A stretch of 64,000 nucleotides of DNA from Naegleria gruberi (lineage: Eukaryota). A model generated the notes under the pieces. It was given only the letters and a program-made list of their open reading frames with translations, did no database searches and was not told the DNA's origin. Positions 5,518 to 35,062 of the stretch are shown here, piece after piece (the stretch's first letter is position 1; each line of letters begins with the position of its first letter). The translations under genes and the position numbers were made by a program. The DNA lies in NCBI GenBank assembly GCA_000004985.1, contig GG738871.1; one strand, 5' to 3'.

Positions 5518-7612
5518 TTAGTGTTCATATAAAGTGGCGAGATTAGAAATAACTTGTTGCTTAACTTGTTCACTTTCAACTGCGAGGACAATCTTTCTAA
5601 AGACCTTCTTTTTCTTCTTCTTTTGATTGTTGAGGGATTTCAAATTTTCTTCAACTGAAACTTCTTCATCTTCTGTTGGAGCTGATGAAGCAGCTTGTTG
5701 ACGAGTCTTTTCAGTTTCGGCCAAATACTTGGTGAGAGCTTTACCAAAAGCAACACCCAATTTAGAGGAGGAAACTTCATCGTCCTTCTTTAACTTTTTA
5801 AAGAATAATTCTTCACACAATGGAAGACCTAGACTACCAACAGTATCTTGTTTCAAAGCTTGAATCAATGCAGAAACATAGGTTTCAACCAATGAATCCA
5901 AACTAGCATCAATACCTTCTTCTTCCTTATAGGCAACAGCAGTAGCATTGAAGAGATATCTATCAAATTCAGGATCAGCCTTTTCTTCTTCAGTCAATTC
6001 AACTGTAGAGACAGAGTGTTGAAGAGCTCCCTTTCCTTGATTGGCTTGTTGGAGTTTCTTTTCAGTGGACTTTTCAGGTTCCTTGACTTCAATACGTGGT
6101 CTTTCAGCAGATTGCAATCCTTCAAATTTACGAAGAGTAATCAATACATCGAGAATGGCATCAACAAAGAGGCCCTTAACACCTTGTGGATTAACAACAA
6201 TGTTAACCAACTTCTTTTCTTCAATGTGCTTAGTGGAACATAATCCTAAATATTGGAAGAATTCCTTAGCAATTTCCAAGTTTGCCTTTGGATTGGCTCC
6301 ATCAGAAAGAATGTGAGCAATCTTGAACTTGTCACCAACAACTTCCAATTCACCAACATAGAGCAATTTCTTGCCCTCTTTTTGAACAATAAAGTATTGA
6401 CCTCTATCATTATAGAATCCATAAACTGAATCAGTATCAAAAGAGAAGCTATGTTTCATCAATTCTTCATAGGATAACATGAGTAAATTTTCTGGAACTA
6501 CTTGCCAAGCACCTTGTTCCATTTCTTCCTTTCTCTTTTGTAACTTTTTAAATCTGGAATATCTTTCCAAATCAGCTTCTCTTTCTTCCTTTGTCTTTTT
6601 ACCTCTTGAACGAACATCAAGTTTAAGCTTTTTCAAATCATTAGCTTTGAGGAATTGTTCATCATCTTCAGTCAATTCTTTTGGCTTTCTTCTAACCTTA
6701 ATTTGTCTAACATTAGACAATTTTGAAACCAATTCCTTCTCCGATTCCAAACTAGCAACTTGCTTATTTTGATTTGGAGTCAATTGTTTAATATGTTCCC
6801 AAACCTTCTCAATCACAATGGTTTGTTTGTACAATTTTCTACAATCAATACCACGAGATTTGAACAAGACTTTTTCAGAGGCTGTTGTTGGTTGATCTTC
6901 TTCATTATTGGCGCCAGAATTTGATGCCTGTTGATTGAGTGCGTAGGTAGCTGAATTGGCTCCGTGTGTAGAGGCATCGTGACGAGCGTACAATTGATTC
7001 AACAAGGCTTCCCATACCACTTCGTGATGGACAATGGTAGAGATACGGAATCGACGACATGTAAGTTCAATGCTCAGGGCAATGTCACGTGCTGAGAGGA
7101 AGGAGAAGATGTTGGCGAGAACGTGATCATTGGATCCACTTTCTGTGATTGGACTTTAAAAGTTGGATCGAATTGAATAATCAATATAATTATTTTGTTG
7201 TTTATATATTATTATTATTATTATCATCATCATCATTAAACAATTAATAATAATAACAAATAAAAATTATATTATTAATATTAATTAGTTAATTAGTTAA
7301 TGATTATTATAAAACTCACGTAAAAACACCCAAATCTTTAGGTTTCGAAACTTTAAACTTTTCTTCACCTGCATCTCTTTCAATGACCATAGTAATGGTT
7401 TGATTATTCTTTACTGATAAATCCCACAAGGAAATCTCATTGGATGTTAATTCTACATTGTTAAAATAACAAATCACTTTATCTGTTGGTGTCAAGTTGG
7501 TATGTTGATGGACAAGACGTTTAATGTCAGCGATTGAGGTTGAGTTTTCAACATCATCAAATTTTAGTGAATCTGCAATGTTGGCACCTAAGAGTCTGAT
7601 GAAGAGTCTCAT
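5518..7612 (-). CDS. Ubiquitin-like domain + F-box protein, 2 exons, ~642 aa, long charged/coiled-coil C-terminal region
   Basis: Exon 1 is 7612..7320 and encodes the Ubl-like fold MRLFIRLL...TITMVIERD. The 166-nt AT-rich intron runs 7319..7154, with GTGAGT donor and TTTTAAAG acceptor. Exon 2 is 7153..5518 and begins in phase with an F-box-like motif DHVLANIFSFLSARDIALSIELTCRRFRISTIVHHEVVWEALL. There is no in-frame ATG upstream of the F-box within exon 2; a stop lies immediately upstream, which supports the spliced model. Confidence 0.55.
7190..7312. repeat. AT-rich microsatellite-like tract (ATT/ATC/TAA repeats) inside the intron of the Ubl-F-box gene
   Basis: ttattattattatcatcatcatcattaaacaattaataataataacaaataaaaattatattattaatattaattagttaattagttaatgattattat. 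Confidence 0.6.
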
Positions 7613-7935
7613 TTTGTGTGGAGTATATTGCAGGTTGTTGTTGTGGATTTTTTTTTTGTGTAAAGTCGTTACAGTTTGTCGAGTTGAAAGATGACAGCGA
7701 AATGATGGTTGTCAAAAGAGGAATTTTTTGATTACAGAAGAACTTTTTGATGCTTGAAGAACCTGAATGGCAACACCTCATTTGACTCTCAATTTTTATG
7801 TATTTAATATTAATAGGTGATTATTCTAAATGTTTATTCGAAAGTGGGTGTGAAAACTATGAGAGAAAGGTCAATAACAATTTCTGATTCCAACAATCAA
7901 GTTTCACATATATTCCAAGTTCTTTCGATTACTTT

Positions 7936-7944
7936 ATTCGAAAC
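7936..7944. promoter_or_regulatory. ATTCGAAAC motif ~85 bp upstream of the 8023 ATG
   Basis: actttattcgaaaccaatc at 7931..7949. Confidence 0.2.
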
Positions 7945-8022
7945 CAATCAACAAACAAGCTCAACTGGAAGATTTTGAAATTCAACTTTCCGCTGCTTTC
8001 ACCCATCACCACTCAACAAAAA

Positions 8023-9446
8023 ATGACTCGATTCAAAAGATTTTCAATCTTTGGCTCAGGATCAAAGAGAAACACAACCCGAGGTTCGTATATCACTAAT
8101 TTCCATTCGCTCATGACGAATTAATTGCTTCATCTCTATTCATCATCATTAATTTCTCAACAATATTTCATTCCGATGATGATAATATATTTTTTATGAT
8201 GAAATAATATTTTGCTGATTCTGATTTTTTTAATGATGATGAATAATATTAATAATAATAATTAATTACAGATTTGTTGTCGGATGAAGAAAGATGGGCA
8301 CAAGAAGAGGAAGAAAAGAAGAAACTCCTTCAAGTATCATTAATACAAAACGAAGAGATGAAGAAGGATGTTGAAACATTGTTGGACAACAAGATGAGAA
8401 ATTGGGTGAATGCAACTGAAAAGAATAGATTGTATCAATCGATAGTGGTCGATAGTTTGAGTGAGGAAGAAAAGAATCATGTCAATTATTGTCGATCCAA
8501 GTATTTGAAATTGAAAAATCAGATACAAATTGGAAATGAAACAATTACAATACTGACACAGAATAGGACTGTGAGTGAGAGATTTTTCTACATGTTTTTC
8601 AATCCAAGTATTTTAGAGATACCTGTAGATTGGAAGGTTGGATTAAAACCATTCATGAAGATTAGATTATTGTTCACACCAGTTCAGGTTGGAGAGGTGA
8701 CTAATTTTCATGCCTTGCTGTTGGTTGGATGTTGGTGTTTGGAGTGGGATAAATCATCTTCTCTGGTGATTGTTAAACAGTTGGATATTACTAGAGTGTA
8801 TTTTGCTATTGATTTGGAGAGATTGACAAGTGAACAAGCTATTCATGAGTGCTTTAATAAGATTTCACAAGAGTGTTGTTTGTGGAATGGATCTAAGGAG
8901 TTCAATGCTAAATCTTGTAATAATCAACATTGTAAGTATATTGTGATGAACTTGTTTTAAAATGAATGAATATCTAATATGAATATATTCATAGTCATTC
9001 TTGCCTTGTTGGATAAATTGAAAATTTCACACAACTTGAAAGGATTATCAAAGATTTATTTTGACACATTGCTGGAAAATGGATCAAGTGCAATGACATT
9101 GAAATTATCGGATGAACTGAAAGAACTACTCAAGATTGATTCAATTACATTTAATACACATCAAGAATTGGACCAATTTACAAAAACAATACACGATTCG
9201 AATCCGTACTATTTTTCACAATACATTTCTGATGAATTGTTGTTGAAATGCTTTGATGAACAATTTTGGTATCTGAGAGATGCCAATGCCAACAATACAA
9301 ATGCTCCACTGATGGAAAATGAAGAATGTCAATGCTACTTTAACAAGAATCAAACTAATTATAACGAGTATGTCAATAAGGGAAAGACTGTAAATAATGT
9401 CTTTTGTTCAAGAAGTTTAATTCCACCAATGCCACTCAGATTTTAA
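8023..9446 (+). CDS. Hypothetical protein, 3 exons (8023..8083, 8272..8931, 8995..9446), ~391 aa
   Basis: ATG at 8023 followed by GTTCGT donor. A 188-nt AT-rich intron ends AATTACAG. A second intron is 63 nt (GTAAGT..TTCATAG). Phases are consistent and join ORFs 8274..8960 and 8979..9446. No recognisable domain; a Cys/His-containing segment FHALLLVGCWCLEWD. Confidence 0.4.
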
Positions 9447-9574
9447 TAAATTATTATTATTAACTAAAACATTCTTTGTGATAGAGATCAATAAATATAT
9501 TGAGAAATATTCATCATAACAGACTCACAAGTTTTATTTCATTGACAAAATTGGTTTCAAAATTGTTCCTTCAC

Positions 9575-11596: not shown

Positions 11597-11697
11597 TGCT
11601 CTAGTACTGCTATCATTTTCAACTTGTGAATTATTTCCTTGATTCGTTAATGAGGGTAATAGCTATGGTTGAATTGTTCCAATTATTATTTGATATT

Positions 11698-12913: not shown

Positions 12914-15900
12914 ATGAAACTAGTGAGCTTTCCCTATCATTTGTTGATTGCTGCTTGTGTAGTGTTACTTCTTGGCAAAGTTAGTGCATGGAGATATTCT
13001 GTGAAAACTCTTGCTACAGGTCTAGGCAGTATTTCTCAAATTGTTGGCTCTCCAAAATATATTTATGTTACACTTGGCTCCAGTTCAAAGAAGATTTATG
13101 CCTACGATAGACAATTATTGGCCACTCAGTCTGTACAAACATTGCAACAAGTCCACGATATAACAGCATCATCAAACAATATTGGTTATATTGCTTATCA
13201 TGGCAATGATTCGAATGACGCTGAAGTGATATCAGTAGCTGGCAATAATTTTCCAAACAATGTGGGTTTGTACTGGTTTACATGCTCATCAACCTGTTCC
13301 ACTCCAACACCCTTCTCTTATAATATAAGGGTCTCAGGAATTAGATCCCTAGGAATTGAGAACTCAACTCCCAAACTTTACATAACAAGACAAACAGCAA
13401 TTTACACTGGCACTCCTTCAGCAAATGCTATTGTATCAACAACTGGAACAATCAATTTTAAAGCTTTCAATGATGTTGATTATATTGGCAATACAGTAAG
13501 TTTTAATTATTTTGCAAATAGGTAACATTGGTTTAGGTTTATTTTACTGACTCAGGTGGAAACCTAAAAATTGCAACAAGTTCAACACCATTAATCAGTG
13601 TAGGCACATTTAGTGATGGTGCCAGTGGTACTGCTCGTTTATCTTCAGGCACAACATTCATCTCTGCACAGTTCAATAAGGTATGTAGTTATGAACAATA
13701 TGTTGTTGGAATAATTTTAAAAGATTTTTATCTCAGACACTGGAAACAGTAGAATTAGACTTTATGATATTGCTACAGGAATTACAACTACAATAGCTGG
13801 TGATCCTTCTAAATCAACAGCTGGAACAACAACTTTCAGTTTATCCGACGTACCAACTAATTACAAATTCACACCAACAGGTATTTGGATTGATAACTCT
13901 AATGGTATCATTTATTTTGCAGACACCAGTACCTTGAGAGCTTTAGTTCCAACTTGTAACAGTACTACAGAAGATCAATCTTCAACTTACCCTTTCTGTA
14001 CTTGTAAAACTGGATATTCATTGGTAAATGGAGATTGTGTTGCATCCACTAGTTGTTCTCCAGGATTGTGTAATGACAATCAAACATGTACTGGCCCAGA
14101 AACTTGTTCTTGTAAGAGTGGATATTATGGAACAAATTGTGATAATTATGACTGTTATGGAACTCAGAAGGATAATCTTTCTGTATGTAATGGAAAAGGT
14201 GTTTGCGTTTCTCCAAACACGTGTATTTGCACCAATGCAAACTATGATGGCTTTAATTGTAATATTACAACTTGTAATTCTATTCCATCAACGAGTGGTA
14301 GTGTTTGTTCTGGACATGGAAGTTGTACTGATTATAATACTTGTGCTTGTAGTGATACCAATTCATGGACAGGATCTGATTGTGGAACACCTGTATGTGC
14401 AGCTGTGAGTGGAGGTGTTTGTTCTGGAAGAGGTAGTTGTACAGCTCCAAATATTTGTACTTGTAATGAACCATCAAAATATGGTGGATCTTCATGTGAA
14501 ATTCCAAAATGTAATGGAACACTTCAAGGCAATTCTGGTGTTTGCAATGGAAGAGGTTCTTGTATTGATGTTGATACTTGTCAATGCACTGTTCCAACCT
14601 CTTGGGGTGGTTCATTCTGTGAAAAACCATACTGCTCTGGAATTTTACAAGGTGCAGCTGGTGTTTGTTCAAATAGAGGTGTTTGTTCATCTCCTGATTC
14701 TTGTGTTTGTAATGAACAAACAAAGTATGGTGGTTCAAATTGTCAACTTGTTAAATGTGGAGGTTATTTAGAAACAGACTCTGCTGTTTGTAACAAGAAT
14801 GGTTCATGTATTGCTGTTGATACTTGTTCCTGTAATTCAAATTATGATGGCCAATTTTGTCAATATCCAAAATGTAATGGCATTGCTTCAAATAGTGGTA
14901 GTGTTTGTAATTCACAAGGATCATGTGTTGCACCAAATGTCTGCTCTTGTTTCACAAATTATGCTGGACCATTATGCGAATATCCAAAATGTAATGGCGT
15001 AGCTTCCAATGATGCAAGTGTTTGTAGCTCGAATGGTACCTGTACTGGTGTTAATACTTGTGTTTGTAATGTTAACTATACAGGATCATATTGTCAATAT
15101 CCAAAATGTAATGGAATATCTTCAAACGATGCAAGTGTCTGTAATAACAAAGGTGGTAATTGTATTGCACCAAATGTTTGTTCATGTAATTCAAGTTATA
15201 CTGGTCAATTCTGTCAATTCCCAAAGTGTAATGGTATTGGATCCAATGATGCAAGTGTTTGTAGTGCAAATGGTACTTGTATTGGAATTAATATTTGTTC
15301 ATGCAATTCAAATTATGCTGGTCCATATTGTCAGTATCCAAAATGTAATGGCATTGCTTCAAATAGTGGTAGTGTTTGTAATTCACAAGGATCATGTGTT
15401 GCACCAAATGTTTGCGCCTGTAATTCAAATTATGGTGGTACATATTGTGATAAACCAAGATGTGGAACCTTTTACAAGGGAGATGCTTCTGTTTGTAATT
15501 CGAGAGGTAGTTGTGATGCTGTTGATAGTTGTACTTGTAGTGATACTTCTTCTTGGGGTGGCAATTTGTGTCAATATCCAAAATGTAATGGTGTTCTTTC
15601 AAATATTGGAACTGTTTGTAGCAGTAGAGGTACTTGTCAATCTCCAAACAATTGTTCATGCACTGATCCAAATTCATATGGTGGTTCATATTGTGAAAAA
15701 GCAAAATGTTATGGAATTCTTCAAGGAGATTCAAATGTTTGTAGTGGACATGGTACTTGTAGTGGTGTGAATCAATGTTCATGTAGTGCTGGATATGGAG
15801 GTGAACAATGTCAATATCCAAAATGTTTCAATATTTTGAGTAATGAAACAACAGTTTGTAACAATAGAAACGGTACTTGTACTGCTCCTGACACTTGTTC

Positions 15901-17716
15901 ATGTAAAAATGGATGGACTGGAAGCAAGTGTGATGTTGCCATTTGTTATTCAATTCTCTCCAATTCAACAAGTGTTTGTTCAAACAAGAGAGGTAATTGT
16001 GTCACACCAGATAATTGTGTTTGTAAAAGTCAATATTCAGGTTCTCAATGTGAATATACCACTTGTTCTGGAATAAGATCAGATCAAACATCGACAGTAT
16101 GTTATGGAAATGGTCAATGTATTGATTATAATACTTGTAATTGTACAACTGGTTATGGACCATCCAATGTATGTCAATATCCAATTTGTGGTGGTTATTT
16201 AGCAAATGATGCCAGAGTTTGTAACAATTCAAGAGGTGTTTGTTCCAAACCAAATACATGTAGACCATTAGATCCCGTATGTTATGGTAAAGCTCAGAAT
16301 AATTCAATGGTTTGCAGTGGAAATGGAGCATGCGTTGATTGGGATTATTGTGAATGTAAAACTGGTTTCAATGGAAATGAATGTCAAAATTGGGAATGTT
16401 ATGGAAAGAATTATACCAACTCAAATGTCTGTAACAATGGAAATGGTACCTGTTCATCTGTGAATAATTGTGTTTGTAACAGTGGATGGTATGGAAACGA
16501 ATGTACAGTTCCAATGTGTAATGGAATTCTTGGCAATTCATCTCTCGTTTGTAACAATAGAAATGGTACCTGCTCCAAACCAGGTGCATGTCAATGTAAT
16601 ACTGGATACACAGGACCTGATTGCTCCATTCCAATTTGTTATGGAAAATTAGGCACTGATACAAGTAATGTTTGTTCAGGAAGAGCAGAATGTATTGGTT
16701 ATAACAAGTGTAATTGTGACACTTCCAAGTATAGTGGTTCACAATGTGAATATTTCAAATGTTTTGGTATTCCATCAAATGATGCTTCAGTTTGCAGCAG
16801 AAACGGAACATGCTCTGGAGTGAATCAATGTTCTTGTAATTATGGTTATGGTTCTTCAAATTGTGACACTTTCACATGTTCAAATGTTCTTGCCACCAAT
16901 TCAAGTGTTTGCAGTGGAAAGGGTGTATGTTATGGAATTGACAAGTGTTCATGTGATTCAGGATATTTCAGTACCAATTGCGAGCTATTTTCTTGTTATG
17001 GAATTCCAAAGTCCAACAATACTGTATGTGGAGGAGTTGGTGAATGTTCACAACTTGATACATGTGTTTGTGGAAGCAATTATAGAGGATCAATGTGTGA
17101 ATTATCTTACACCTCTTCATCTCAAGCAACACTTCAATTCAATAATACGAATGAATATGTGAATGAACAATTCACAAGCATGGCCACTTTGACAATTAAT
17201 AATCCTCTCTTCGGTCAATATTATTTGAGAAGAAGTGTTCAAGTTGTTGTTTCATTCCAAATTAATTCACAATTCAGTTATTCTGAAACACTTTATATTG
17301 AAAATGGAGTTTCATCTGTTTCATTAATGGTGAAATCATTGAGTCAAACTGGTACATTGAAAGCATCTGCTCAATTAATTGATAATAGTACATTGATTTC
17401 CATTTCAGATAGTATTCAATCTTCAAATAGCATTACAATTCAAAATAGACCTATTGTTGTTCCATCCACAAAGACATCCACAACCAAACCAACAACCTCT
17501 GCACAAACAAGTAGAGCTGTTATCGATACAGGAAGTAATGGTGGAGCCATTGCAGCTGGTATCATTGTTCCAGTGGCAGTTATTGGAATTGGAGGTGGTG
17601 TCACTGCAGCCATTGTCACAGCAGTTGTTTTATTAAAGAAGAAGGCTGCTGCAGCTGCTGCCAAAGAAATTGCACATGCCCAACACGTCAATGTTGAACT
17701 AGCTGAAGGTTTCTAA
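12914..17716 (+). CDS. Large type-I membrane protein: signal peptide, NHL-repeat-like beta-propeller region, ~35 tenascin-type EGF-like repeats, Ser/Thr stalk, TM, short tail (~1572 aa; exons 12914..13495, 13537..13680, 13724..17716)
   Basis: Signal peptide MKLVSFPYHLLIAACVVLLLG. NHL-like motifs VYFTDSGGN, IFISDTGNSRIRLYD, GIWIDNSNGIIYFADTS. Two tiny in-phase introns of 41 and 43 nt (GTAAGT..TTTAG, GTATGT..AAAAG) bypass in-frame stops. Six-Cys EGF units ~32 aa each, of the form YPKCNGIxSNxxSVCxxxGxCxxxNxCxC. C-terminal TM AIAAGIIVPVAVIGIGGGVTAAIVTAVVLL. Confidence 0.65.
14864..15411 (+). repeat. Intragenic exact ~77-bp repeat (copies ~14864..14940 and ~15335..15411) within the EGF array; part of ~96-bp periodic coding tandem repeats spanning ~14000..17100
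   Basis: The identical string tatccaaaatgtaatggcattgcttcaaatagtggtagtgtttgtaattcacaaggatcatgtgttgcaccaaatgt occurs twice 471 bp apart (five EGF units). The motif ccaaaatgtaatgg (YPKCNG) recurs throughout. Confidence 0.7.
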
Positions 17717-20411: not shown

Positions 20412-20420
20412 ATATTCAAG

Positions 20421-22404: not shown

Positions 22405-23544
22405 TTAATATTCATCATCTTCGTTTTGAGTTGATTTGTGAATATTTAAATTTCCATTTCTGCTGAATGTGAAATTTTGTTGTTCTCCTCTTATGGTAGG
22501 TTTGGAATGTGTTTCCAACAAAATGTCATCTGATTTAATTTCATTTTTTGATTCTTCCTGTTCTTTTTGTAATTTTTCTAAGAATTCCAAATGTTTTCTT
22601 TGTCTTGGATTAAGTGGGAGGGGTCTTGAGATTCGTTCAACTTTTCTTTCCTCATTCGAAAGGTCATTTCTTCTACTTTTCTTTGAAACGAGCCCTTCAC
22701 CATCACTCTCTGAAAAGTGTTCATTCGAAACAACTTCTTCTTCGTTTCTTTCCTCTGTTTCGTCCTCTTTCTCTTTCGATTCGTCTTCATCACTGGAAAA
22801 GAATGGAGCTCCTTCCAATGCCTTCTTCTTTTCCTTCAATTTCTTCAATCGTTTGCTTCTCTCCTTCTCCACCTTCTTCTCATACAATTTCATAAAATGT
22901 TTATCTTTCAACATTTCCTCTTCCAGAACTGAAATTTCAGTTTTGGAAATTTTAATCTTGTAACAATCAATGAAAAGTCCAACAATGGTCGATACGAAAA
23001 ATAAAACCATCGAAACAATCAGTACAATACTAGTAATGTCCTTCTTGAATACCAAATCAGTATAATTCTCAAAGAAAGAGCTCGATCTCTCAAATCTCCA
23101 CTGATTTCCCAGACAAATCATTCCATTCGAAAAGTTTCTGCTCCCCTCTTCGCATTGATAACAGTGGTGATGAATGCACTCCAGGTCTCCTTCCAGCCAC
23201 AGGGAATTACCCAAATCACTGGTTGTTTCCATTGTTTCCTCATTGGAATTATCGGCACAGACCCATTTAGAGAGGAGAATATTTCTGGAACAGTTGGCAG
23301 CCCATTTTGGATGCTCTGTGATGAGAACACATTGTTTCAAACTCTCGGAGCAATACTCACCCACAGAGCAATCGGGATGAATTGGAAAATTTGGATATTG
23401 ATGTGGAGGAATCGAACGACATGAAGAAGAGCTTGCTAATGTTGGTGTGAATGAATTTACAATTGTGATGAAGAAGAAAATAATGATGTATAAGAGGGGT
23501 GATGATTGGTTGGTTTTCCGTACGGAATTATCTGTTGAAAACAT
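22405..23544 (-). CDS. Hypothetical type-I membrane protein: signal peptide, Cys-rich ectodomain, one TM, highly charged (KE-rich) cytoplasmic tail
   Basis: ORF 22405..23649. Likely start at internal Met (MFSTDNS..., ~23544) so as not to overlap the upstream gene's 3' end. Hydrophobic LLYIIIFFFITIVNSF near the N-terminus. TM ITSIVLIVSMVLFFVSTIVGLFI. Tail rich in E/K/S. Confidence 0.4.
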   Translation of the reverse strand: MFSTDNSVRKTNQSSPLLYIIIFFFITIVNSFTPTLASSSSCRSIPPHQYPNFPIHPDCSVGEYCSESLKQCVLITEHPKWAANCSRNILLSKWVCADNSNEETMETTSDLGNSLWLEGDLECIHHHCYQCEEGSRNFSNGMICLGNQWRFERSSSFFENYTDLVFKKDITSIVLIVSMVLFFVSTIVGLFIDCYKIKISKTEISVLEEEMLKDKHFMKLYEKKVEKERSKRLKKLKEKKKALEGAPFFSSDEDESKEKEDETEERNEEEVVSNEHFSESDGEGLVSKKSRRNDLSNEERKVERISRPLPLNPRQRKHLEFLEKLQKEQEESKNEIKSDDILLETHSKPTIRGEQQNFTFSRNGNLNIHKSTQNEDDEY

Positions 23545-23635: not shown

Positions 23636-25157
23636 TTATAGAAAATCATTTTCCTCTAAGGCACAAGGTGCTGCGTCTTCGGCAATGTGAATATGAGACT
23701 TTCCTCCAGGTCCATTCAGTTGCATCTTATTTCCACAAATTGTTGATGTCTTGGTTGATTCCAAAACAATGGCATTTCTGGTGTGTCCACTAAAGACACT
23801 TCTCTCAATTCTCATAGAGGCCTCACCTTTGCAGAGAATGGCATTTCCATCATTCTTTTGAAAGAGACTTTTGGTTACTTCACACAGAGTGTCATCTTCG
23901 AGTCGCATTCCATGAAGTTTGTTAAATTCCACGTGGCACTCGGTCATGATTAATTTGGGAGGATCACAAATTGGTTTCTTACTACCAGTCGATGGCAGTG
24001 GCGGTGGAGGTGGTTGAGTGTTTGATTCAATTGATGCTGTCGAAGGAGTTGTAGAAACTGCTGCATCAGTTGTGTTTTTCACAGGTGGAATGTATAATCT
24101 ATTCTTTACAGTAACACCAACTCCATAACTTGCTCTCAAATGGACATGTTGCAGAGTGCATGATCCTGAAACAATTTCCAAACACGACGCCGATTCATAA
24201 AATAAAATACTATCCCTAGCAGCATTCTGTGTGAGTGTGACATGTTCAAATTTGACACTTCCCCCACCATCCAATAAACGTTGTTTTTCCAATTGTTGAA
24301 TTGTTAAATTCTCATTAAAAGAGTCCACTCTCAAAATTGATTTTGAGCTATCCGAAGAGGCAATATGTACAAGTGATGAATCTGGATAAACTCCACGAAT
24401 GGTGAGTGGTTTCTTAATGACAACTGTTTCAGGAACTTTGTAAATTCCACTTCTCAAAACAACATGGTCTCCCTCCTTTGCAAAATCAACAGCTCTCTGT
24501 ATATCATGAAAAGTACAATCTTCACTAAAATCTGGATCAACTACATGAAGTCTGTAATCTGAATTCCTAACAGATGAATCATTAATTTCCTTTATCCAAT
24601 TGCTTTGGTCATTTTCATCCTCACAAGCAAGATAATAAGTACGATGAGGTGAAATGATTTTAATACCAAATTTCTTTTTGTAATTCAATTCGGCTGCTTG
24701 ACAAGTTAATCCCTGAACATTAATCATTCCTTTGGGTTTGGTATCTTTCTGTGATACATAGTAATATAATTTTCCTCTATTTTTTAAATTATTAATAAGT
24801 ATTGTAGGTTAAAGATGAGAATATAGTATTCGAAACACATACTGATGCAAAATACATAATCTCTCGTGCCATGTTTTAATGGAACCTCCTCGTTTGGTCT
24901 ATTCATTTCAAATATATTATGAAAATGTATAACGGTTATTATTATTGAAATTGTTCCGAATACAAATTGTTTCGAATAAAACCTACCAGTGTTCCTACAA
25001 AGTCGTGGTCTCTCATCAATTCAGAAGCAGATACTTTGGGTGGTTCCTCCACTATCTCCTTCCACTTCTTACCAGCCTTCTTTACTTTATCTTGTGATGA
25101 CATTTTTTTATTGTTATAACTTTGATGGATGACATTTGCAAAAAGATTGCTAAACAA
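23636..25157 (-). CDS. PH-domain protein with C-terminal parallel beta-helix-like repeats, 3 exons (25157/25103..24987, 24898..24843, 24776..23636)
   Basis: The spliced product gives a textbook PH N-terminus, FVGTL-TKRGGSIKTWHERLCILH-Q-GKLYYYVSQKDTKPKGMINVQGL...NWIKEIN. Introns of 88 and 66 nt (GTAGGT..AATAG; GTATGT..AAATAG); phases consistent. C-terminal part has PbH1-like repeats and a PPPPPLP linker. Confidence 0.5.
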
Positions 25158-26140: not shown

Positions 26141-26168
26141 ATTGACAGACACAGATACAATTAGTAGT

Positions 26169-27831
26169 TTAATGGTGAGTGGTACGTGCTGTTCTACACA
26201 TTTCATGATAATAAAGAAATTTCATCGTATTCACATTACCTTCCTTTTCAAAGTTAAAAGCGATGGCCTTTCCTGAGTTATTGGATGAAGGAGAGTTGCC
26301 AATCATGTATGATTGTTGATTATTCACTGATACTGGACTATTTACAATAACATCCTTGAAGAAGACATGATTGAGAGCTTGTGAGAAGGAAATTCTCTTC
26401 TCTGGATTCCACTGTAAAAATTGATGCAGTAAATCCAGAGCTTCCTTACTTGCTGATGGGAAGACTAAATCGAATGAAATTCCCTCCTCGGCATGATCTA
26501 TGAATTGTTGAGCGTACCAATCTCTGCATCCATCTGATCCCATAATATCCTCTGGTTTGGCCTTTCCTAGTAAGCTAGTGATGAGATTCAAGTGTTCACT
26601 AATTCCACTAATCTCTCTTCCTGTAGAGTTGACTGCAAACAATGGTCTTCTCATTGGTTTAGGTGGTAACATGTACAATAATTCTGCCATGATACATCCC
26701 AATCCCCACGAGTCAATACTCGATGATTGAACATTGTATTGCAATATTACTTCTGGAGGTCTGTAATATCTAGTTATTACATATAAAGATTTTGAATTCT
26801 TTCCCGGATTATCACTCTCAATATTCGACAAACCAAAATCTGAAATTCTGACATTGACATTATCTCCCTGATAGCTCAATAAAACATTTGCTGGTTTCAT
26901 ATCCCTGTGCAAAACTCCAAATGATTGCATATATTGCATTCCATTCAATAATTGATACATGATTGTTTTTACAAAATCCAAATTAATGGCCTTCTTCTTT
27001 TTGTGTAAACTATTCAAAAAAACTTTCAAATCTCCATCTTGCATTAATCCCATTACAATATACAATTCTTTAAAATTATTTAAACAATATTCTCTTTCTC
27101 CAGTTCCAACAAACACATCAATCAACTCTACTATATTTGGATGAGGTCTCAGAAATCTCATAATTTTAATTTCTCTCAACATTCTGTATGGAGCTCCATT
27201 ATTAAAGACATTCTTGATCATTTTAATGGCAACCATCTTGTTTAATTCTTTATCATGACATGCCTTGATAAATTCCAATTAAAAAAACATCAATTAACAA
27301 ATTAAATATTCGAAACTATTCGAAACTACGTACCACCACAACTCCATATCCACCCTGACCCAAAATCCTCACACATCCAGTCAACTCATCAATTGCTGGT
27401 TCATACCTCGTTGGCAGTGTCATTTCAAACTCCAAATCTCCACTTGCCGATTTAATTACATGTCTTGCCACATGTCTGTGATGTTCCGATGGATAATCGA
27501 GAATTTTAAAAGGATCTGGTACTGCATTGGAAGATGATATATCAACATCACCTTCATCATCATCAAAATTAAAAACAAATGAATCATCTTCTTCATCTTG
27601 CATCATCATACTTTCGTATATGTTTTTTTGAGTGGCATGAGATGATTGTTGTTGTTCATTGACAGAAAGTGAAAGAGGAGGTTGTGGAAAATGATTTTGA
27701 TGTTGGTTTTGGTTTTGGTTTTGTTGATTGTCTTGCATTTTGGTTGTTTGTTGTTTTTGTGTATTTTCTTTTGGTTGTGTAAATGATGGAAAGGGAGAAG
27801 GAGATGGATGGGAACAGAAAATTCGTTTCAT
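26169..27831 (-). CDS. Ser/Thr protein kinase, CMGC group (MAPK/CDK-like), 2 exons (27831..27334, 27263..26169), ~531 aa
   Basis: Exon 1 ends with the glycine loop LGQGGYGVVVV followed by a GTACGT donor. A 70-nt intron precedes exon 2, which begins ACHDKELNKMVAIKMI. Exon 2 carries HRDMKPANVLL, DFGLS, the activation loop SLYVITRYYRPPEVIL and SIDSWGLGCIMAELL. The N-terminus is Q/N-rich low complexity. Confidence 0.7.
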
Positions 27832-27927
27832 TTTTTTTTGAACTTGGAAATTGGCTTATTGATGGGGAAAGTTTTAATTTTTGGAAAGATCTATTTTTGA
27901 GAATATAATTTATTTTGGATTTTTTTA

Positions 27928-27946
27928 TTCGAAACTTGGTCGAAAC
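27928..27946. promoter_or_regulatory. ATTCGAAAC(n3)TCGAAAC motif ~100 bp upstream of the kinase gene ATG (27831, minus strand)
   Basis: ttattcgaaacttggtcgaaactg. This is one instance of a recurrent motif; see findings. Confidence 0.2.
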
Positions 27947-28108
27947 TGTGAACTAGAGTGTACTAGTTCTGTAAATTGGATTGAGGGTTTTCTTCTCTGA
28001 TATTTTGAAAATTATTTGAATTAAAAAAAAATAAAGGGATGTATTTATTAAATTAGAAAGACTATTCCGATTTAGTAAATTTGTAATTACTCTTGTTCTA
28101 TCGCACAG

Positions 28109-28504
28109 TTAGTCAGATAGGTTTGAATTGTTTTCTGTGTTTGGGGATAGAGAAGAGCTTGCAGGCTGAGTGGAGACATTGCTCAAGTCCCAAGCTGTAG
28201 AAAATTTGGCAGTCTTGGGCTTGATCATATATCCTCTTTTGTTTCTTAATTGGGAGCAACTATTCCACGTGCTGTTTTTATAGCAGCTTCCAACATATGA
28301 GGCAAAAGCACAATATATATCAGTGCTCCATTCAGTCAAGAGTTTGTTGAATTGAAAGTTTGGGTTGTTATGGATTACTCCATTCCAATCCATGTTGATC
28401 GTGAGTGGAGAGTGGTCAGGTGGGAGTTTGACTTCAGCAGTGTTGTGTTTGGCGGATGATTCGTTCCATTTCTTGTACAAGAGGGAGAGTTCAGATTTGC
28501 ACAT
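28109..28504 (-). CDS. Hypothetical small protein (131 aa), Cys/Trp-containing, Ser-rich C-terminus
   Basis: ORF only; no recognisable domain. The ATTCGAAACTATTCGAAAC motif sits ~50 bp upstream of its ATG. Confidence 0.3.
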   Translation of the reverse strand: MCKSELSLLYKKWNESSAKHNTAEVKLPPDHSPLTINMDWNGVIHNNPNFQFNKLLTEWSTDIYCAFASYVGSCYKNSTWNSCSQLRNKRGYMIKPKTAKFSTAWDLSNVSTQPASSSLSPNTENNSNLSD

Positions 28505-28547
28505 TATGCATTCGGAGAAGACATGTTCCCATTTGAATTAAAAAAAA

Positions 28548-30010
28548 ATGATTCATTCGAAACTATTCGAAACAAGTGTCACCCTCATTCTCGATCAACA
28601 AAATATCGGAAACACTTTATTAAAACAAAAATACCAATTTACAAAATTCAAAAAACTCCAAGAAAACTACATTCCAATAGAATTTCACAATGATCGAGAG
28701 TTTATTACAATTTGCATCAGAGAATTGCAGAAATGACAAACAAATTGTCTTGACAGCTGTCAAACAAGATTGTTCCACTTACAAATTCGCTTCTCCTAAA
28801 TTAAAACTGGATTTTGAGATTTTACTTTCATATCTTGAGAAAAATAGACATTCATTTAAGATGATTGTACCAAATTCAAATAGATGACAAGGAATTTATA
28901 ATGTCAGCAATCAAAATGGGATTTTCTTTGAAATATGCTTCTGATAGATTGAGGGATGATAAAGAGGTGGTTATGGAAGCAGTTTCGAATGGATATGAAT
29001 TGTTTAATGTATCTGATAGGTTGAAATCTGACAAGGATGTCGTGTTAAAAGCACAACAAACTTTTGAAAAGGCATATTTGTTAGCACCACAACATTTAAA
29101 ATATGACTTTGATATTAAGGCAGCAAGATATGAATTTAACACAAGAGGAATTGCCAAATGTCATGACAGAAATCAAATTTTAAGATTAATTGAAACAAAA
29201 GGATATTTATTTAGTTATGCCAAACCGAAATTCAAAAATGATAAGGAAATTATTTTAAAATTCATTGAAATTAATGCGTGGCAAGCTGTAGAAAATGCAT
29301 CACCTCAATTAAAAGATGATTCGGATATAATTAGGAAATCAGTGGAGAACTGTGGATTAACTATTCGATTGGCATCCGAAAGATTGAAAAATAATAAGGA
29401 AATTGCACTCATAGCAATGAAGACGAGTGCTTGTAAGGCAATAATGGATATTTCTGATAATCTTAGACAAGACAGAGAGTTTTTAATAGAGGTTGTTTCG
29501 TATGGATCTATTCTAAATGAACATTCCTCAATCGAGTTGAAAAGTGACAGGGAATTAAGGAATCGGTAAAATATAGAGGAGTTGATATACAGTTTGCATC
29601 CAATGAGTTGAAAAATGATAAGGAGCTAATATTACTTGCTGTCAAAACTCATGCATATGTTGTCAGTTTCATTTCCCGTAATTTCCTCTTTAATTCGGAT
29701 TTTCTATTGGAATTATTGAAGCTTAATCCAAATATTGTGAAATTCTTGGATGGCCACCATCGAGATTCAGAATTTGTACATTTAGCTACGAAAGGAGATT
29801 CTCTAATTTATGCCTCGAATAGATTGAGAAATTTAAAGGAATTTGTTTTCGAATGAATGGTTGTGCACTGAAAGGAATAGGAAGTACCTTGGAGAATGAT
29901 TCAGAACTTGTCATTGAGGCAGTCAAGCAAAATGGATATTTCACAAACTTTAATTTGTTCAGCTTAAGAATGGAATTGGAATATCCAGAATTACAAAACA
30001 TTACAAAGTT
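28548..30010 (+). pseudogene. DUF4116-repeat gene disrupted by at least four frameshifts (probable pseudogene)
   Basis: Consecutive ORFs 28548.., 28690.., 28865.., 29608.. and ~29859..30010 lie in three different frames. All encode DUF4116-type units (e.g. ASDRLRDDKEVVMEAVSNGYELFNVSDRLKSDKDVVLKA). The frame changes occur within <30 nt windows (~28730, ~28870, ~29580, ~29857), too short for introns. An intact paralog is at 61765..62883. Confidence 0.45.
28553..28571. promoter_or_regulatory. Tandem ATTCGAAACT-ATTCGAAAC motif ~50 bp upstream of the 28504 ATG (minus-strand gene)
   Basis: attcattcgaaactattcgaaacaagtg. The same dimer occurs inside the kinase intron at 27308..27326. Confidence 0.2.
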
Positions 30011-30085
30011 TTAATTGCCTATTGTTTCAAAATCTTTTTAAATTAAATTGTTAGTGCTGTGTTTCATCTTTGTATTTTGATGATT

Positions 30086-30601: not shown

Positions 30602-30747
30602 CCATGTAGGGTGGAATGGGTGCTGCTTGCGACATTTTTTTTATATTTTGAAATTGAAAAAACACGTGTTTAAAATTCTTAAATATTGTAAACAAGTTCA
30701 TTATTTAAATTTTACAATGAAATTTCTAATATAATACAGTTGATTGG

Positions 30748-32613: not shown

Positions 32614-33001
32614 CGTTTTTTTTTGAAGAAATACTGGAACTATGCATCACCAAGTTCATCACAGTAAAAATTCTGCAAATTAGCATCATATGTACTGTTG
32701 TAAATCCAACGTATACATTCACATTACCTCTTTCTTAAATGACCAAAATGGAGAATGCTCAAGGTCTTTTCTTATTGATTGCACTCAAGTAAATCCCTAA
32801 TACAATTCAGTTTTGAGAAAGGATATGAAGATGAAACATGAAGGATTGTATTGTGGTTGATTAATAAATTTTAATTGAGAGGTAGCTCAATATGAACTTT
32901 ATCCTTAATAATGAAATATTGAGCAACTTGGAACTTGAGCATCTACTAAACCAAAGTGAGTCTGTTATCACCAGACATATGTGAACAATTTAGTTTAAAT
33001 C

Positions 33002-34580
33002 TCAAACAATGAAAGAAAATATTAATCCCATATTCGAACCTATACTAATACCAAAGAGCAAGAAAAAGGTCATCATTGTTCCAGCAATTTCCTTCTCGTT
33101 ATTCTCTACACACTGAGGAGCAAACATCATCAATAATGAGCACAAGTAACCATTCGAAATTGAGACAAGGAAAATTGAAAAGAGTGGGAAGGCGTCGTAA
33201 ACATAATCATTATAACCAAATAGGCTAGGTCTATAATAAAATAAAAAGAGTGGTACGAAAAATACTCTCAATAACACTGGAATGGCAATGGTCTTCTTGT
33301 TGAAAGCAATAATCCAGTTTGGCATGGTTCTGCCAACAAATTCAAAAATGTTATTACTAGCTGCCATCAAAATTGGAAGCCAATATCTCATTGGTGTAGA
33401 GGAATACCAAGTTCTAACTCCAAGAGCTAAACCAGGGAAGAGTGAAATGGTCACCACAAACAGGAGCATTACCAGCAAGCACAAATACCAAATCTTTTTG
33501 AAAACAGTCAAAATAGATGCACTATTAGCATTTGAATTGTTACCATCTTCTAATTGTTTCTTCTTTGATAAATTAATATAATATTTACAATATGGATGCC
33601 TCACAACATAGATAAAACTCAAAATGCACAACAGGATTATAATAGAGCACACAATAAAGTAACTAGCAGTACTGTGAGTCATTCTCATTAGAGAGACATG
33701 CACTCTGTTCTGTTCAATAGTCAACTTGGTAACAATTCTCAAAAAAGAACACAACAATCCAGCAAGACCAGCACCTACCATGACAGCTTGGACGTACATG
33801 GAGGGAAGCATAGAGGCCAATCCAAAAATTCCAGATTGTAAAAAGCAATTACACAACGCACAAAACACTATAAAAGTTATTGTAATTATAAATCCAGAAG
33901 TTGATTCAGCATTTGAATATCCAATTATAGGAATGCTCAATAAAATCAATAATGTCACAACGTAGGCAGGAAATACTCTAAAATTAAGTGGAATTTTGCC
34001 TCCAAATTTAGTAAATACCAACAATCCCAATAAATTAGGAACACTATAAGCCACACTAAAGTACATCATTGCACTTTCTCCATAAATTTTAGTGAAATAA
34101 TCAGGTGCAGAAATAAAACTATTCCAAGGAAACAATACTCCACATCCTTCAAATTTAATTTTGTATCCAATTATTCCAATTTCAATATCAATCCGAAATA
34201 TATGCGTGATATAATTCAATTAAAACAAAATAATACAAAATTAATATTAAAACCAATATTCTTATTTTGACAAACAACATACCCTGCAAAACAAATATGA
34301 AATACAACAATTTTCCATTCACTTGTGGTTCCGAATCCAAAATAATACTCTTAGCCTGTTCCTTCCTTCTCTCTTCATTCAAATGACCTTCATCATCCAT
34401 ATCCTCCGAATAAGCCATCGAATCCACACTCTGCCCACCATGATGTAATCCCATCATCTTGTTGTTACTCATCAAATGAGGAGCATTATGTTGTTGCTGG
34501 TGGTGTTGTATGAGATGATTACTCTCTTCCTCACCTCCTTTTGTATTTGGCGCGAAATTCACAGAGCCTTTGGAAAACAT
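33002..34580 (-). CDS. Equilibrative nucleoside transporter (ENT/SLC29 family), 2 exons (34580..34283, 34146..33002), ~480 aa
   Basis: A 136-nt intron (GTATGT..TTTGAAG) joins ...LLYFIFVLQ-G-CGVLFPWNSF. The C-terminal region SNGYLCSLLMMFAPQCVENNEKEIAGTMMTFFLLFGISIGS closely parallels the ENT1 C-terminus (SNGYLASLCMCFGPKKV...AGAIMAFFLCLG). ~11 TM helices. Confidence 0.7.
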
Positions 34581-35053
34581 TTTTTCTTCACAGATTCAAA
34601 AGAACACACTCTTATTGACCAAGAAGTTTGTTGTTTGTATGATGATGAGGTATTAGACTTCTTCTTTATCCGCTGCTCTTGCTCTTGGAAGAAAAGGATG
34701 AAGTTCTGTTTGTTAACGTTGTTGCTTGTTGGGGTTCATGTTTGAGGGAAGAAGTACATTAAAAAATTGGACCCTTTGCTTTTCTGGGATTTGGGTAGCA
34801 ATGGTGCTTATTTGGGTTACAGTAATTGGTTTATTTACAGTGAATATTTGAAAAGGTCAATTAAATAGTTAAGTGTTTTATGAGCTCTATTGTTGACAAT
34901 TTATTGTAATGCAGTGAGAGAATTATTCTTGCTTGAGAATACGAAGGAATTAGTGAGAGAAGAAATGAGAAGTACTCCAAATTGACTTCCTTTTTCCCAA
35001 TAAAACAATTGGGTAGGACATAATAATAGCTGTTAACCATCATCATTAACTTT

Positions 35054-35062
35054 ATTCGAAAC
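35054..35062. promoter_or_regulatory. ATTCGAAAC motif ~60 bp upstream of the UGDH start codon
   Basis: tttattcgaaacaaactaaa at 35051..35070. ATG at 35120. Confidence 0.2.

What the first reader, a model, noticed from the sequence alone, without database searches (positions are those of the whole stretch)
7334..35062. Recurrent ATTCGAAAC / palindromic GTTTCGAAAC motif near 5' ends of genes
The 9-mer ATTCGAAAC or its palindromic extension occurs at least 9 times in a CpG-poor, AT-rich window. Sites: 7342, 7936, 24828, 24969, 27308, 27318, 27928, 28553, 28563 and 35054. Four copies lie 50-100 bp upstream of start codons, those of the 8023 gene, kinase, 28504 gene and UGDH. The rest lie inside the first or 5'-proximal short introns of the PH/beta-helix gene and the kinase. 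Twice it appears as a tandem dimer ATTCGAAACT-ATTCGAAAC. This positional bias suggests a core-promoter or 5'-proximal regulatory element.
Basis: seen in the sequence. Interest (0 to 1): 0.5.

Follow-up and report, generated by a model that had tools for sequence, protein, structure and literature searches.

The report
Gene-start DNA motif in Naegleria gruberi
A 10-base DNA word, TATTCGAAAC, recurs far more often than chance allows and sits close to the starts of about a quarter of the genes in this stretch of the amoeba Naegleria gruberi, so it is most likely the docking site of an unidentified gene-regulating protein, though no binding has been shown.

Summary
ATTCGAAAC occurs 13 times (0.6 expected) and its extension TATTCGAAAC 9 times (0.12 expected). 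It is the only top-ranked 9-mer that is not a coding or low-complexity repeat.

The window is Naegleria gruberi. Nine of 12 site clusters lie within -200..+300 bp of a start codon (2.6 expected). They fall in two zones:
- -127..-63 upstream of the ATG.
- +138..+296 downstream, in short 5' introns and in early exons.

Orientation relative to the gene is mixed. Five clusters hold two copies 10-16 bp apart.

Removing it restores a 342-bp divergent kinase/DUF4116 promoter holding four motif copies.

The motif is absent from about 133 kb of N. fowleri, N. lovaniensis, an unnamed Naegleria relative and Willaertia, including the orthologous kinase and UGDH promoters. It therefore appears lineage-specific.

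Best reading: a 5'-proximal, orientation-independent binding site for an unknown DNA-binding protein. It does not behave like a classical core-promoter element. It fails the tests for a tRNA B box, a heat-shock element and transposon ends. It only loosely resembles the LIN54 CHR element. Function is inferred, not shown.

The parts
7935..7944 (+). TATTCGAAAC, 84-87 bp upstream of the ATG of gene G5 (8023, +). It lies in the 410-bp divergent promoter shared with the ubiquitin-like gene G4 (ATG 7612, -).
7835..7844 (+). One-mismatch copy TATTCGAAAG, 100 bp upstream of the previous site in the same divergent promoter.
7342..7351 (.). Palindromic variant GTTTCGAAAC inside coding exon 1 of G4 (ubiquitin-like), +266 from its ATG and about 25 bp before the exon 1 5' splice site.
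1491..1499 (+). ATTCGAAAC in the coding sequence of the beta-helix gene G2, +295 from its first ATG (1199).
22723..22731 (+). ATTCGAAAC in the coding sequence of G13b (- strand gene), antisense, +923 from the ATG. Probably a bystander copy.
24969..24978 (-). TATTCGAAAC at positions +9..+18 of intron 1 (24986-24899) of the PH/beta-helix gene, sense, +138 from ATG 25103. A degenerate second copy, TATTCGGAAC, follows 16 bp downstream at 24953-24962.
24827..24836 (+). TATTCGAAAC, read as GTTTCGAATA in gene orientation, at +7..+16 of intron 2 (24842-24777) of the PH/beta-helix gene, +272 from the ATG.
27307..27326 (+). Tandem dimer TATTCGAAAC-TATTCGAAAC filling +8..+27 of the 70-bp kinase intron (27333-27264), antisense, +515 from ATG 27831. 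This intron is missing from the kinase genes of N. fowleri, N. lovaniensis and the unnamed relative.
27926..27946 (+). TATTCGAAAC followed 11 bp later by TGGTCGAAAC, 96-109 bp upstream of the kinase ATG, antisense to the kinase.
28555..28573 (+). Tandem dimer ATTCGAAACTATTCGAAAC, 117-135 bp upstream of the DUF4116 gene (ATG 28690), sense.
28033..28530 (-). Context only, not part of the motif system. It splits an ancestral 342-bp kinase/DUF4116 promoter that holds four motif copies.
28982..28990 (-). ATTCGAAAC in the coding sequence of the DUF4116 gene, antisense, +296 from the ATG.
35053..35062 (+). TATTCGAAAC 58-67 bp upstream of the UGDH ATG (35120), sense. A one-mismatch copy, TATTCGAAAG, lies at 35319, +203 in the coding sequence.
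46185..46204 (-). Degenerate tandem pair TATTCTAAAC-TAGTCGAAAC with 10-bp spacing, 98-117 bp upstream of the ATG (46087, -) of the EGF-repeat gene G25, sense.
60363..60372 (+). TATTCGAAAC deep in the coding sequence of the PH-RasGAP gene, about +2990 from the ATG. It does not fit the 5' pattern.

Best explanation
TATTCGAAAC has a palindromic TTCGAA core with asymmetric flanks. It is most likely a cis-regulatory DNA element of Naegleria gruberi: the binding site of a still unidentified sequence-specific DNA-binding protein that acts near the 5' ends of a subset of RNA polymerase II genes.

**Shown**
- The word is strongly over-represented.
- It clusters around start codons in two zones, about -130..-60 and about +130..+300.
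- It occurs in either orientation.
- It often comes as two copies one helical turn apart (10-11 bp), or as an upstream and a downstream site on the same gene.

**Inferred**
- A protein reads the double-stranded site, probably cooperatively on tandem copies.
- From these promoter-proximal, intronic or early-exon positions it influences transcription initiation or local chromatin. This would resemble a general regulatory factor or proximal activator/repressor site, not a start-site-positioning core element.
- The protein-motif pair, or its heavy use, arose in the N. gruberi lineage.
For: **Over-representation**
- 13 vs 0.6 and 9 vs 0.12.
- It is the top non-repeat k-mer in the window.

**More than a composition effect**
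- TTCGAA reaches 1.82 per kb in the 200 bp upstream of ATGs, against 0.64 per kb in coding and 0.80 per kb in other noncoding DNA.
- CpG observed/expected is the same in upstream and other noncoding DNA (0.58 vs 0.54).
- Within coding DNA the 9-mer still exceeds a synonymous-codon-shuffle null (4 vs 0.9, P=0.004).

**Position**
- 9 of 12 exact clusters lie within -200..+300 of an ATG (2.6 expected).
- 4 lie in -140..-60 (0.43 expected) and 5 in +130..+305 (0.92 expected, P=0.0015).
- The result holds with an earlier, cruder gene list.

**Copy arrangement and orientation**
- Paired copies 10-16 bp apart occur at 27307/27317, 28555/28565, 46195/46185, 27926/27937 and 24969/24953.
- Orientation is mixed, which argues for recognition of duplex DNA and against an RNA signal.

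**Not a dispersed repeat.** No similarity between sites extends beyond 11-14 bp, or 19 bp for the dimers.

**Hints of conservation**
- The two orthologous PH-gene introns are otherwise unalignable. Each carries a TTCGAA-core element in N. lovaniensis and in N. fowleri. My estimate of that happening by chance is about 0.006 and 0.014.
- N. fowleri UGDH has TATTTGAAAC at -146.

**Bidirectional promoter.** After removing the LINE insertion, four copies sit in one 342-bp divergent promoter.
Against: - No binding, expression or transcription-start data were available, so function is inferred from sequence statistics in one 64-kb window.
- The motif is absent (0 exact copies) from about 133 kb of other Heterolobosea. 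This includes the orthologous kinase and UGDH promoters of the closest available relative. Phylogenetic footprinting therefore mostly fails. The PH introns of that closest relative (L016) lack TTCGAA.
- Sites are regionally clumped: 7 of 12 clusters lie in 6.3 kb (P=0.003). They are also strand-biased, 11 of 13 on the + strand (P=0.02). A simple binding-site model predicts neither.
- One-mismatch copies show no significant positional bias.
- The positional zones were chosen after seeing the data.
- The motif-bearing genes share no obvious function: UGDH, a CMGC kinase, a PH/beta-helix protein, DUF4116, an EGF-repeat protein and a ubiquitin-like protein.
Confidence: 0.5

Rival explanations
1. 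A neutral by-product of a lineage-specific mutational or insertional process, without regulatory function. Candidates are slippage or duplication of a 10-bp unit, decayed subterminal repeats of a small mobile element that prefers 5' regions, or local gene conversion.
For: - It is lineage-specific: 0 copies in about 133 kb of relatives, and absent from orthologous promoters.
- No comparable word is enriched in 101 kb of N. fowleri and N. lovaniensis.
- Sites are regionally clumped and strand-biased.
- The excess extends to coding sequence.
- Exact tandem duplications occur.
- The kinase intron that carries a dimer is itself lineage-specific.
- A young retrotransposon sits in the same intergenic region.
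Against: - No flank similarity, terminal inverted repeats or target-site duplications surround the sites.
- The same 10-mer recurs at independent loci, where random duplicated targets would differ in sequence.
- The sites show a significant start-codon-proximal, bimodal placement.
- A CpG-containing word persists in a CpG-depleted genome with no CpG-island effect.
Confidence: 0.17
2. A true core-promoter element. In this reading it is a TATA- or initiator-like signal at a fixed distance from the transcription start site that directs RNA polymerase II initiation.
For: - Five promoters carry it 63-127 bp upstream of the ATG. Four of the five are in sense orientation.
- The single-copy sites share a T-rich 5' extension, TTTATTCGAAAC.
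Against: - Six of the 12 exact clusters are downstream of the ATG in introns or exons within 520 bp, and two more lie deeper in coding sequence.
- The kinase copies are antisense.
- Promoters carry two to four copies.
- About three quarters of the genes, including EF2 and Arf, lack it.
Confidence: 0.1
3. A B-box-like site bound by TFIIIC without RNA polymerase III, of the 'extra TFIIIC' type. It would act as a chromatin boundary between genes.
For: - ATTCGAAAC matches the B-box core GTTCRANNC at 8 of 9 positions (PMC5391098).
- Sites lie in divergent intergenic regions.
- A retrotransposon inserted 5 bp from a dimer. This recalls tRNA-gene-targeted elements in Dictyostelium, a comparison from my own knowledge and that paper.
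Against: - The first position is A in 13 of 13 copies, where a B box has G.
- The two tRNA genes in the window use GGTTCAAATCT and GGTTCAATTCC.
- No A-box-like sequence lies upstream of any site.
- No Rfam hit occurs in the motif-rich spacer.
- The retrotransposon's target is an A-tract, as expected for an L1-type endonuclease (inference).
Confidence: 0.06
4. An RNA-level signal, such as an intronic splicing element next to the 5' splice site or a 5'-UTR element.
For: - In three introns the motif starts 7-9 nt after the 5' splice site.
- The upstream copies could lie in 5' UTRs.
Against: - Orientation differs between introns: sense in PH intron 1, antisense in PH intron 2 and in the kinase intron.
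- About ten other introns in the window lack the motif and mostly start with GTAAGT.
- These introns are only 66-88 bp long, so little room remains apart from the stretch just after the splice site (inference).
Confidence: 0.04

Closest known systems
Promoter-proximal sites of general regulatory factors and homotypic transcription-factor site clusters in compact genomes (for example the Reb1, Abf1 and Rap1 type in yeasts; comparison from my own knowledge)
   Same: - A short, high-information word.
- Placement roughly 60-130 bp upstream of coding starts.
- Either orientation.
- Use in bidirectional promoters.
- A functionally mixed gene set.
- Multiple copies per promoter.
   Different: - No factor is known.
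- A second, equally strong zone lies 130-300 bp downstream of the ATG, inside introns and exons.
- The motif appears restricted to one Naegleria lineage.
CHR (cell cycle genes homology region) bound by the tandem CXC domains of LIN54/tesmin-type proteins
   Same: - The core TTCGAA fits the biochemically defined consensus TTYRAA.
- CHR elements sit close to transcription start sites of TATA-less promoters (PMC4974476).
   Different: - Human LIN54 prefers at least one central A-T pair, so TTCGAA is the weaker variant.
- There is no GC-rich CDE 4 nt upstream.
- The flanks TA..AC add specificity that CHR lacks.
- The CpG-to-TpG form, TATTTGAAAC, is not enriched here.
- The genes are not obvious cell-cycle genes.
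tRNA-gene B box and extra-TFIIIC sites
   Same: TTCGAAAC is identical to the 3' eight bases of a permitted B-box core, GTTCRANNC.
   Different: - The invariant first G is A in every copy.
- The tRNAs in the window use GTTCAA-type boxes.
- There is no A box.
Intron-mediated enhancement signals in plants (short motifs in promoter-proximal introns; from my own knowledge)
   Same: Copies lie in the first, very short introns within a few hundred bp of the gene start.
   Different: - Plant signals are degenerate, depend on position, and are thought to act on the transcribed strand.
- This motif is a sharp 10-mer, occurs in both orientations, and is also found upstream of genes and in exons.

Membership tests
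Promoter-proximal transcription-factor binding site | Statistical over-representation beyond base, dinucleotide and codon composition | tested here: met
   13 vs 0.6. 9 vs 0.12. Coding copies 4 vs 0.9 under synonymous shuffling.
Promoter-proximal transcription-factor binding site | Positional enrichment relative to gene starts | tested here: met
   9 of 12 clusters lie within -200..+300 of an ATG against 2.6 expected. This is measured against ATGs, not transcription start sites, and in one window only.
Promoter-proximal transcription-factor binding site | Works in either orientation, with homotypic clustering | tested here: met
   Both orientations occur. Five clusters hold paired copies 10-16 bp apart.
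Promoter-proximal transcription-factor binding site | Conservation at orthologous regulatory regions | tested here: inconclusive
   Absent upstream of the kinase and UGDH genes in N. fowleri, N. lovaniensis and the ERZ27315067 species. TTCGAA cores are present in the PH-gene introns of two species but not in L016.
Promoter-proximal transcription-factor binding site | Specific protein binding and an effect on transcription | not testable with these tools
   Needs EMSA or pull-down, ChIP or footprinting, and reporter assays.
RNA polymerase II core-promoter element | Fixed orientation relative to the direction of transcription | tested here: not met
   Among noncoding sites, 5 are sense and 4 antisense. 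The kinase promoter copies are antisense.
RNA polymerase II core-promoter element | A single, fixed position relative to the transcription start site | tested here: inconclusive
   No start-site data were available. Relative to ATGs the sites span -127..-63 and also +138..+515, which argues against a fixed position.
tRNA B box / extra-TFIIIC site | Consensus GTTCRANNC with an invariant first G | tested here: not met
   A in 13 of 13 copies. The only GTTCGAAAC in the window is at 37565, in coding sequence.
tRNA B box / extra-TFIIIC site | TFIIIC occupancy | not testable with these tools
   Needs ChIP.
CHR element (LIN54/CXC) | Core TTYRAA | tested here: met
   TTCGAA fits the IUPAC consensus, but it is the low-affinity variant for human LIN54 (PMC4974476).
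CHR element (LIN54/CXC) | Association with cell-cycle genes and/or a CDE 4 nt upstream | tested here: not met
   No GC-rich element lies next to any copy. The gene set is mixed.
Heat-shock element (HSF) | Alternating nGAAn pentamers in 5-bp register (TTCnnGAA) | tested here: not met
   TTC and GAA abut with no spacer. The tandem period is 10 bp (read directly from the sequence).
Transposon or MITE terminal/subterminal repeat | Shared flanking sequence, terminal inverted repeats and target-site duplications around copies | tested here: not met
   blastn-short of +/-90 bp flanks finds only the motif itself, 11-19 bp.

The most novel reading that the evidence does not exclude
N. gruberi may have evolved a lineage-specific promoter architecture. 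In this reading, one DNA-binding protein (possibly a domesticated transposase, or a CXC-type factor with altered specificity) binds pairs of TATTCGAAAC sites that bracket the first few hundred base pairs of a gene. One site would lie about 100 bp upstream and the other about 200-300 bp downstream of the ATG, even inside exons and newly gained introns. The pair would set the first nucleosome, form a loop, or define a special chromatin class such as the small set of 6mA-marked genes.
Probability: 0.1. Interest if true: 0.65.

Novelty: new member of a known kind. Interest (0 to 1): 0.4.

Why it matters
Very little is known about how transcription is controlled in Heterolobosea. Seven full-text searches on Naegleria promoters, motifs and related topics, and one on the word TTCGAAAC (827 papers, the 30 top-ranked inspected), turned up no described Naegleria promoter motif.

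If the pattern holds genome-wide, this sharp, abundant, start-proximal 10-mer would have three uses:
- It would be a first handle on a Naegleria regulatory factor. The dimer could serve as a pull-down probe.
- It would help define promoters for transgene design in an emerging model organism.
- It would be an example of rapid turnover of a regulatory word between Naegleria species.

It also corrects the local annotation. One apparent gene is a retrotransposon fragment, and one promoter is bidirectional.

Tried and rejected
- **More N. gruberi sequence.** N. gruberi proteins P0002 and P0127 could not be located on contigs, and the window's own UGDH is not on record. No genome-wide test was therefore possible.
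- **Metagenome scan for the 19-nt dimer.** It gave 12 unrelated contigs of varied GC content, none Naegleria-like. A dead end.
- **Orthologous loci.** I fetched UGDH, PH-gene and kinase loci from N. fowleri, N. lovaniensis, an unnamed ENA Naegleria and Willaertia. None holds an exact copy, so classical footprinting failed apart from the weak intron signal.
- **CpG-island or methylation explanation.** Rejected. CpG observed/expected is equal in upstream and other noncoding DNA. Published N. gruberi methylomes show only 0.28% 5mC with no CpG preference (PMC12344493).
- **Codon-usage explanation.** It accounts for most of the coding TTCGAA (29 vs 23.1) but not for the extended word.
- **Repeat or MITE explanation.** Rejected by flank comparison.
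- **Hidden RNA gene in the kinase/DUF4116 spacer.** No Rfam match at E<=1.
- **Second shared promoter motif next to the sites.** None found beyond A-rich tracts.
- **Heat-shock element and B box.** Rejected on spacing and on the first base.
- **Equivalent motif in N. fowleri and N. lovaniensis.** Only triplet repeats are enriched there. Their kinase promoters share a different conserved block, CTCAATGAACAAYGAACT.

Full report
**Identity of the window**

The sequence is eukaryotic. It contains spliceosomal introns, a 5S rRNA gene, a U3 snoRNA gene and two tRNA genes. GC is 34% and CpG observed/expected is 0.42.

The kinase ORF at 26172-27278(-) matches the NCBI Naegleria gruberi partial protein P0127 at every aligned residue. 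The NCBI model is missing only a 14-residue stretch. The window is therefore N. gruberi or something indistinguishable from it. The UGDH gene is 84% identical to the annotated N. gruberi UGDH, evenly along its length, so it is a second paralogue.

**The observation**

- ATTCGAAAC occurs 13 times on both strands, against 0.60 expected from dinucleotide-preserving shuffles (largest 3).
- The extension TATTCGAAAC occurs 9 times against 0.12 expected.
- Sites within one mismatch of the 10-mer number 36, against a mean of 5.1 (largest 11) in first-order simulations.
- In an unbiased scan of all 9-mers under a third-order model, TATTCGAAA (18 vs 1.8) and ATTCGAAAC (13 vs 1.2) rank with the top four.
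- The other top words map to the EGF-repeat genes or to triplet repeats. This motif is the only outstanding non-repeat word.
Four exact coding copies were missed (1491, 22723, 28982, 60364).
- Both 19-nt tandem dimers are confirmed.

**Not a repeat family**

Comparing +/-90 bp around every site against the window finds nothing shared beyond the motif itself. Matches are 11-14 bp, with consensus TTTATTCGAAAC for single sites, and 19 bp for the two dimers. No Rfam family matches the motif-rich spacer.

**Composition controls**

- The bare core TTCGAA is three-fold over-represented (49 vs 15.65).
- In coding DNA this excess is largely explained by codon usage: 29 observed against 23.1 under synonymous shuffling (P=0.09).
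- The extended word is not explained that way: 4 vs 0.9 (P=0.004).
- In the 200 bp upstream of start codons TTCGAA reaches 1.82 per kb. Coding DNA has 0.64 per kb and other noncoding DNA 0.80 per kb.
- CpG observed/expected is the same in the two noncoding classes (0.58 and 0.54).
- Published methylomes report only 0.28% cytosine methylation in N. gruberi, with no CpG preference (PMC12344493). CpG depletion occurs despite very low CpG methylation (PMC12695648).
- Retention of this CpG-containing word is therefore not a CpG-island or methylation effect.

**Gene context**

I built approximate gene models from coding-potential-scored ORFs, Pfam hits and splice junctions.

Upstream copies:

| Gene | Position relative to ATG (motif centre) | Orientation |
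|---|---|---|
| G5 (ATG 8023) | -84 | sense |
| Kinase (ATG 27831) | -99, with a second unit TGGTCGAAAC 11 bp away | antisense |
| DUF4116 gene (ATG 28690) | -127 (dimer) | sense |
| UGDH (ATG 35120) | -63 | sense |
| EGF-repeat gene G25 | -107 (degenerate tandem pair) | sense |

Downstream copies:

| Location | Position relative to ATG |
|---|---|
| PH/beta-helix gene, intron 1 | +138 |
| Ubiquitin-like gene G4, exon 1 | +266 |
| PH/beta-helix gene, intron 2 | +272 |
| Beta-helix gene G2, coding | +295 |
| DUF4116 gene, coding | +296 |
| Kinase intron | +515 |

Two exact copies, at 22723 and 60363, lie deep in coding sequence.

**Positional statistics**

- With a conservative list of 28 start codons, 9 of 12 exact clusters fall within -200..+300 (2.6 expected; none of 4000 random placements reached 9).
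- Four fall in -140..-60 (0.43 expected).
- Five fall in +130..+305 (0.92 expected; P=0.0015).
- An earlier, cruder gene list gave the same direction (P=0.001-0.009).
- The zones were defined after seeing the data. One-mismatch-only sites show no significant bias. The P values should be read as supportive, not definitive.

**Introns**

In all three motif-bearing introns the word starts 7-9 nt after the 5' splice site:
- GTAGGTTT-TATTCGAAAC
- GTATGT-GTTTCGAATA
- GTACGTA-GTTTCGAATA-GTTTCGAATA

The orientation differs between them. The introns are only 66-88 bp long. About ten other introns in the window lack the motif. I take the placement to reflect the limited free space in tiny introns, not a splicing role.

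The kinase intron is absent from N. fowleri, N. lovaniensis and the unnamed relative, whose ORFs run straight through the junction.

**The '28504 gene'**

- ORF 28109-28504(-) has a negative coding score and no Pfam domain.
- An exhaustive profile search found relatives whose upstream parts carry reverse-transcriptase motifs, including YADDILL.
- tblastn maps the homology to 28531 down to about 28034 on the - strand.
- The fragment is bounded by an exact 19-bp direct repeat, ATTTGAATTAAAAAAAAAT, at 28014-28032 and 28531-28549.

It is therefore a 5'-truncated LINE-like insertion with a target-site duplication. Removing it restores a 342-bp divergent promoter between the kinase and the DUF4116 gene. 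That promoter holds four motif copies, all on the + strand, within about 150 bp.

**Other species**

- No exact copy exists in 11 heterolobosean loci, about 133 kb non-redundant. At the window's density about 27 would be expected.
- The kinase and UGDH promoters of N. fowleri, N. lovaniensis and the closest available relative (ENA sample ERZ27315067) lack the motif.
- The N. fowleri and N. lovaniensis kinase promoters share a different block, CTCAATGAACAAYGAACT.
- No comparable non-repeat word is enriched in 101 kb of those two species.
- Two weak signs of deeper conservation exist. First, both orthologous PH-gene introns, otherwise unalignable, carry TTCGAA-core elements in N. lovaniensis and N. 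fowleri, though not in L016. Second, N. fowleri UGDH has TATTTGAAAC at -146.

**Unexplained features**

- Seven of 12 clusters lie within 6.3 kb, from 22.7 to 29.0 kb (P=0.003).
- Eleven of 13 copies are on the + strand (P=0.02).

**Interpretation**

Five features together are what a double-stranded binding site for a sequence-specific protein looks like:
- strong over-representation,
- placement close to gene starts,
- indifference to orientation,
- tandem copies one helical turn apart,
- paired upstream and downstream sites on the same genes.

I rate this reading at about 0.5. It is not a classical core-promoter element.

Tests against known families:
- **B box:** fails. A replaces the invariant G in all 13 copies, the tRNAs in the window use GGTTCAA-type boxes, and there is no A box (consensus from PMC5391098).
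- **Heat-shock element:** fails on spacing.
- **LIN54 CHR consensus TTYRAA:** fits only formally. TTCGAA is the weak variant for the human protein and no CDE accompanies it (PMC4974476).

The main rival, at about 0.17, is a neutral lineage-specific process. Its support comes from the lack of conservation, the clumping, the strand bias and the excess in coding sequence.

**Novelty**

Full-text searches found no description of this or any Naegleria promoter motif. I file it as a new member of a known kind, a candidate cis-regulatory word. Its interest is moderate until a genome-wide scan and a binding assay are done.

Noticed in passing
window 28014-28549: A 5'-truncated LINE-like (non-LTR) retrotransposon fragment on the - strand, flanked by an exact 19-bp target-site duplication, ATTTGAATTAAAAAAAAAT. 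Another copy in the databases is 98% identical over the matched C-terminal stretch (P0137), which suggests a young, possibly active family.
   Followed up: yes
window 27264-27333 (kinase intron): This 70-bp phase-0 intron lies between GYGVVV and ACHD. It is absent from the orthologous kinase genes of N. fowleri, N. lovaniensis and an unnamed ENA Naegleria. It is therefore either a gain in the N. gruberi lineage or was lost in the others. Nearly a third of it is the motif dimer.
   Followed up: partly
window 26172-27278 vs NCBI protein P0127: The public N. gruberi kinase model lacks 14 residues (LFAVNSTGREISGI) that are in frame and uninterrupted in the DNA. The orthologues have sequence at this point. 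It is probably a falsely predicted intron. The model also lacks the N-terminal exon.
   Followed up: partly
window 35120-36577: This UGDH is only 84% identical, evenly along its length, to the annotated N. gruberi UGDH. The neighbouring kinase, in contrast, is identical to its N. gruberi entry. N. gruberi therefore appears to have two UGDH paralogues, and this copy was not found as an annotated protein.
   Followed up: partly
window 46982-53127: A cluster of small RNA genes lies among protein-coding genes: U3 snoRNA (46982-47210, -), tRNA-Leu(CAA) (47567-47647, +), tRNA-Glu(TTC) (51607-51680, -) and a dispersed 5S rRNA gene (53009-53127, -). None has the motif nearby.
   Followed up: no
whole window: CpG is strongly depleted (observed/expected 0.42 overall, 0.37 in coding). 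Published data show almost no CpG methylation in N. gruberi. Synonymous shuffling raises coding CpG from 499 to about 773, so CpG is avoided across codon boundaries. The cause is unexplained.
   Followed up: partly
window sites 1491-60364: Eleven of the 13 exact motif copies are on the + strand whatever the gene orientation (P=0.02). Seven of 12 clusters lie within 22.7-29.0 kb (P=0.003). No model I considered predicts either.
   Followed up: partly
L019 9915-9940 and L020 9932-9957: The N. lovaniensis and N. fowleri kinase promoters share a nearly identical block, CTCAATGAACAAYGAACT, a tandem TGAAC-type repeat about 60-90 bp upstream of the ATG. The rest of the spacer has diverged. It may be their own regulatory element at the position where N. 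gruberi has the TCGAAAC pair.
   Followed up: partly
window 12914-17716 and 42770-46087: Two very large EGF/teneurin-like repeat genes account for most of the other over-represented 9-mers (ACTTGTCAA, GTTATGGAA, ATGTAATGG, GTGTTTGTA).
   Followed up: partly
window 9195-9205: GATTCGAATCC is a near-perfect tRNA T-arm/B-box-like string and is palindromic over ATTCGAAT. It sits inside the coding sequence of G5. No tRNA is predicted there.
   Followed up: no
L015+L019 (N. lovaniensis): AACATGTTG, part of the palindrome CAACATGTTG, is enriched 13 vs 1.9 in 43 kb of N. lovaniensis. I did not examine it further.
   Followed up: no
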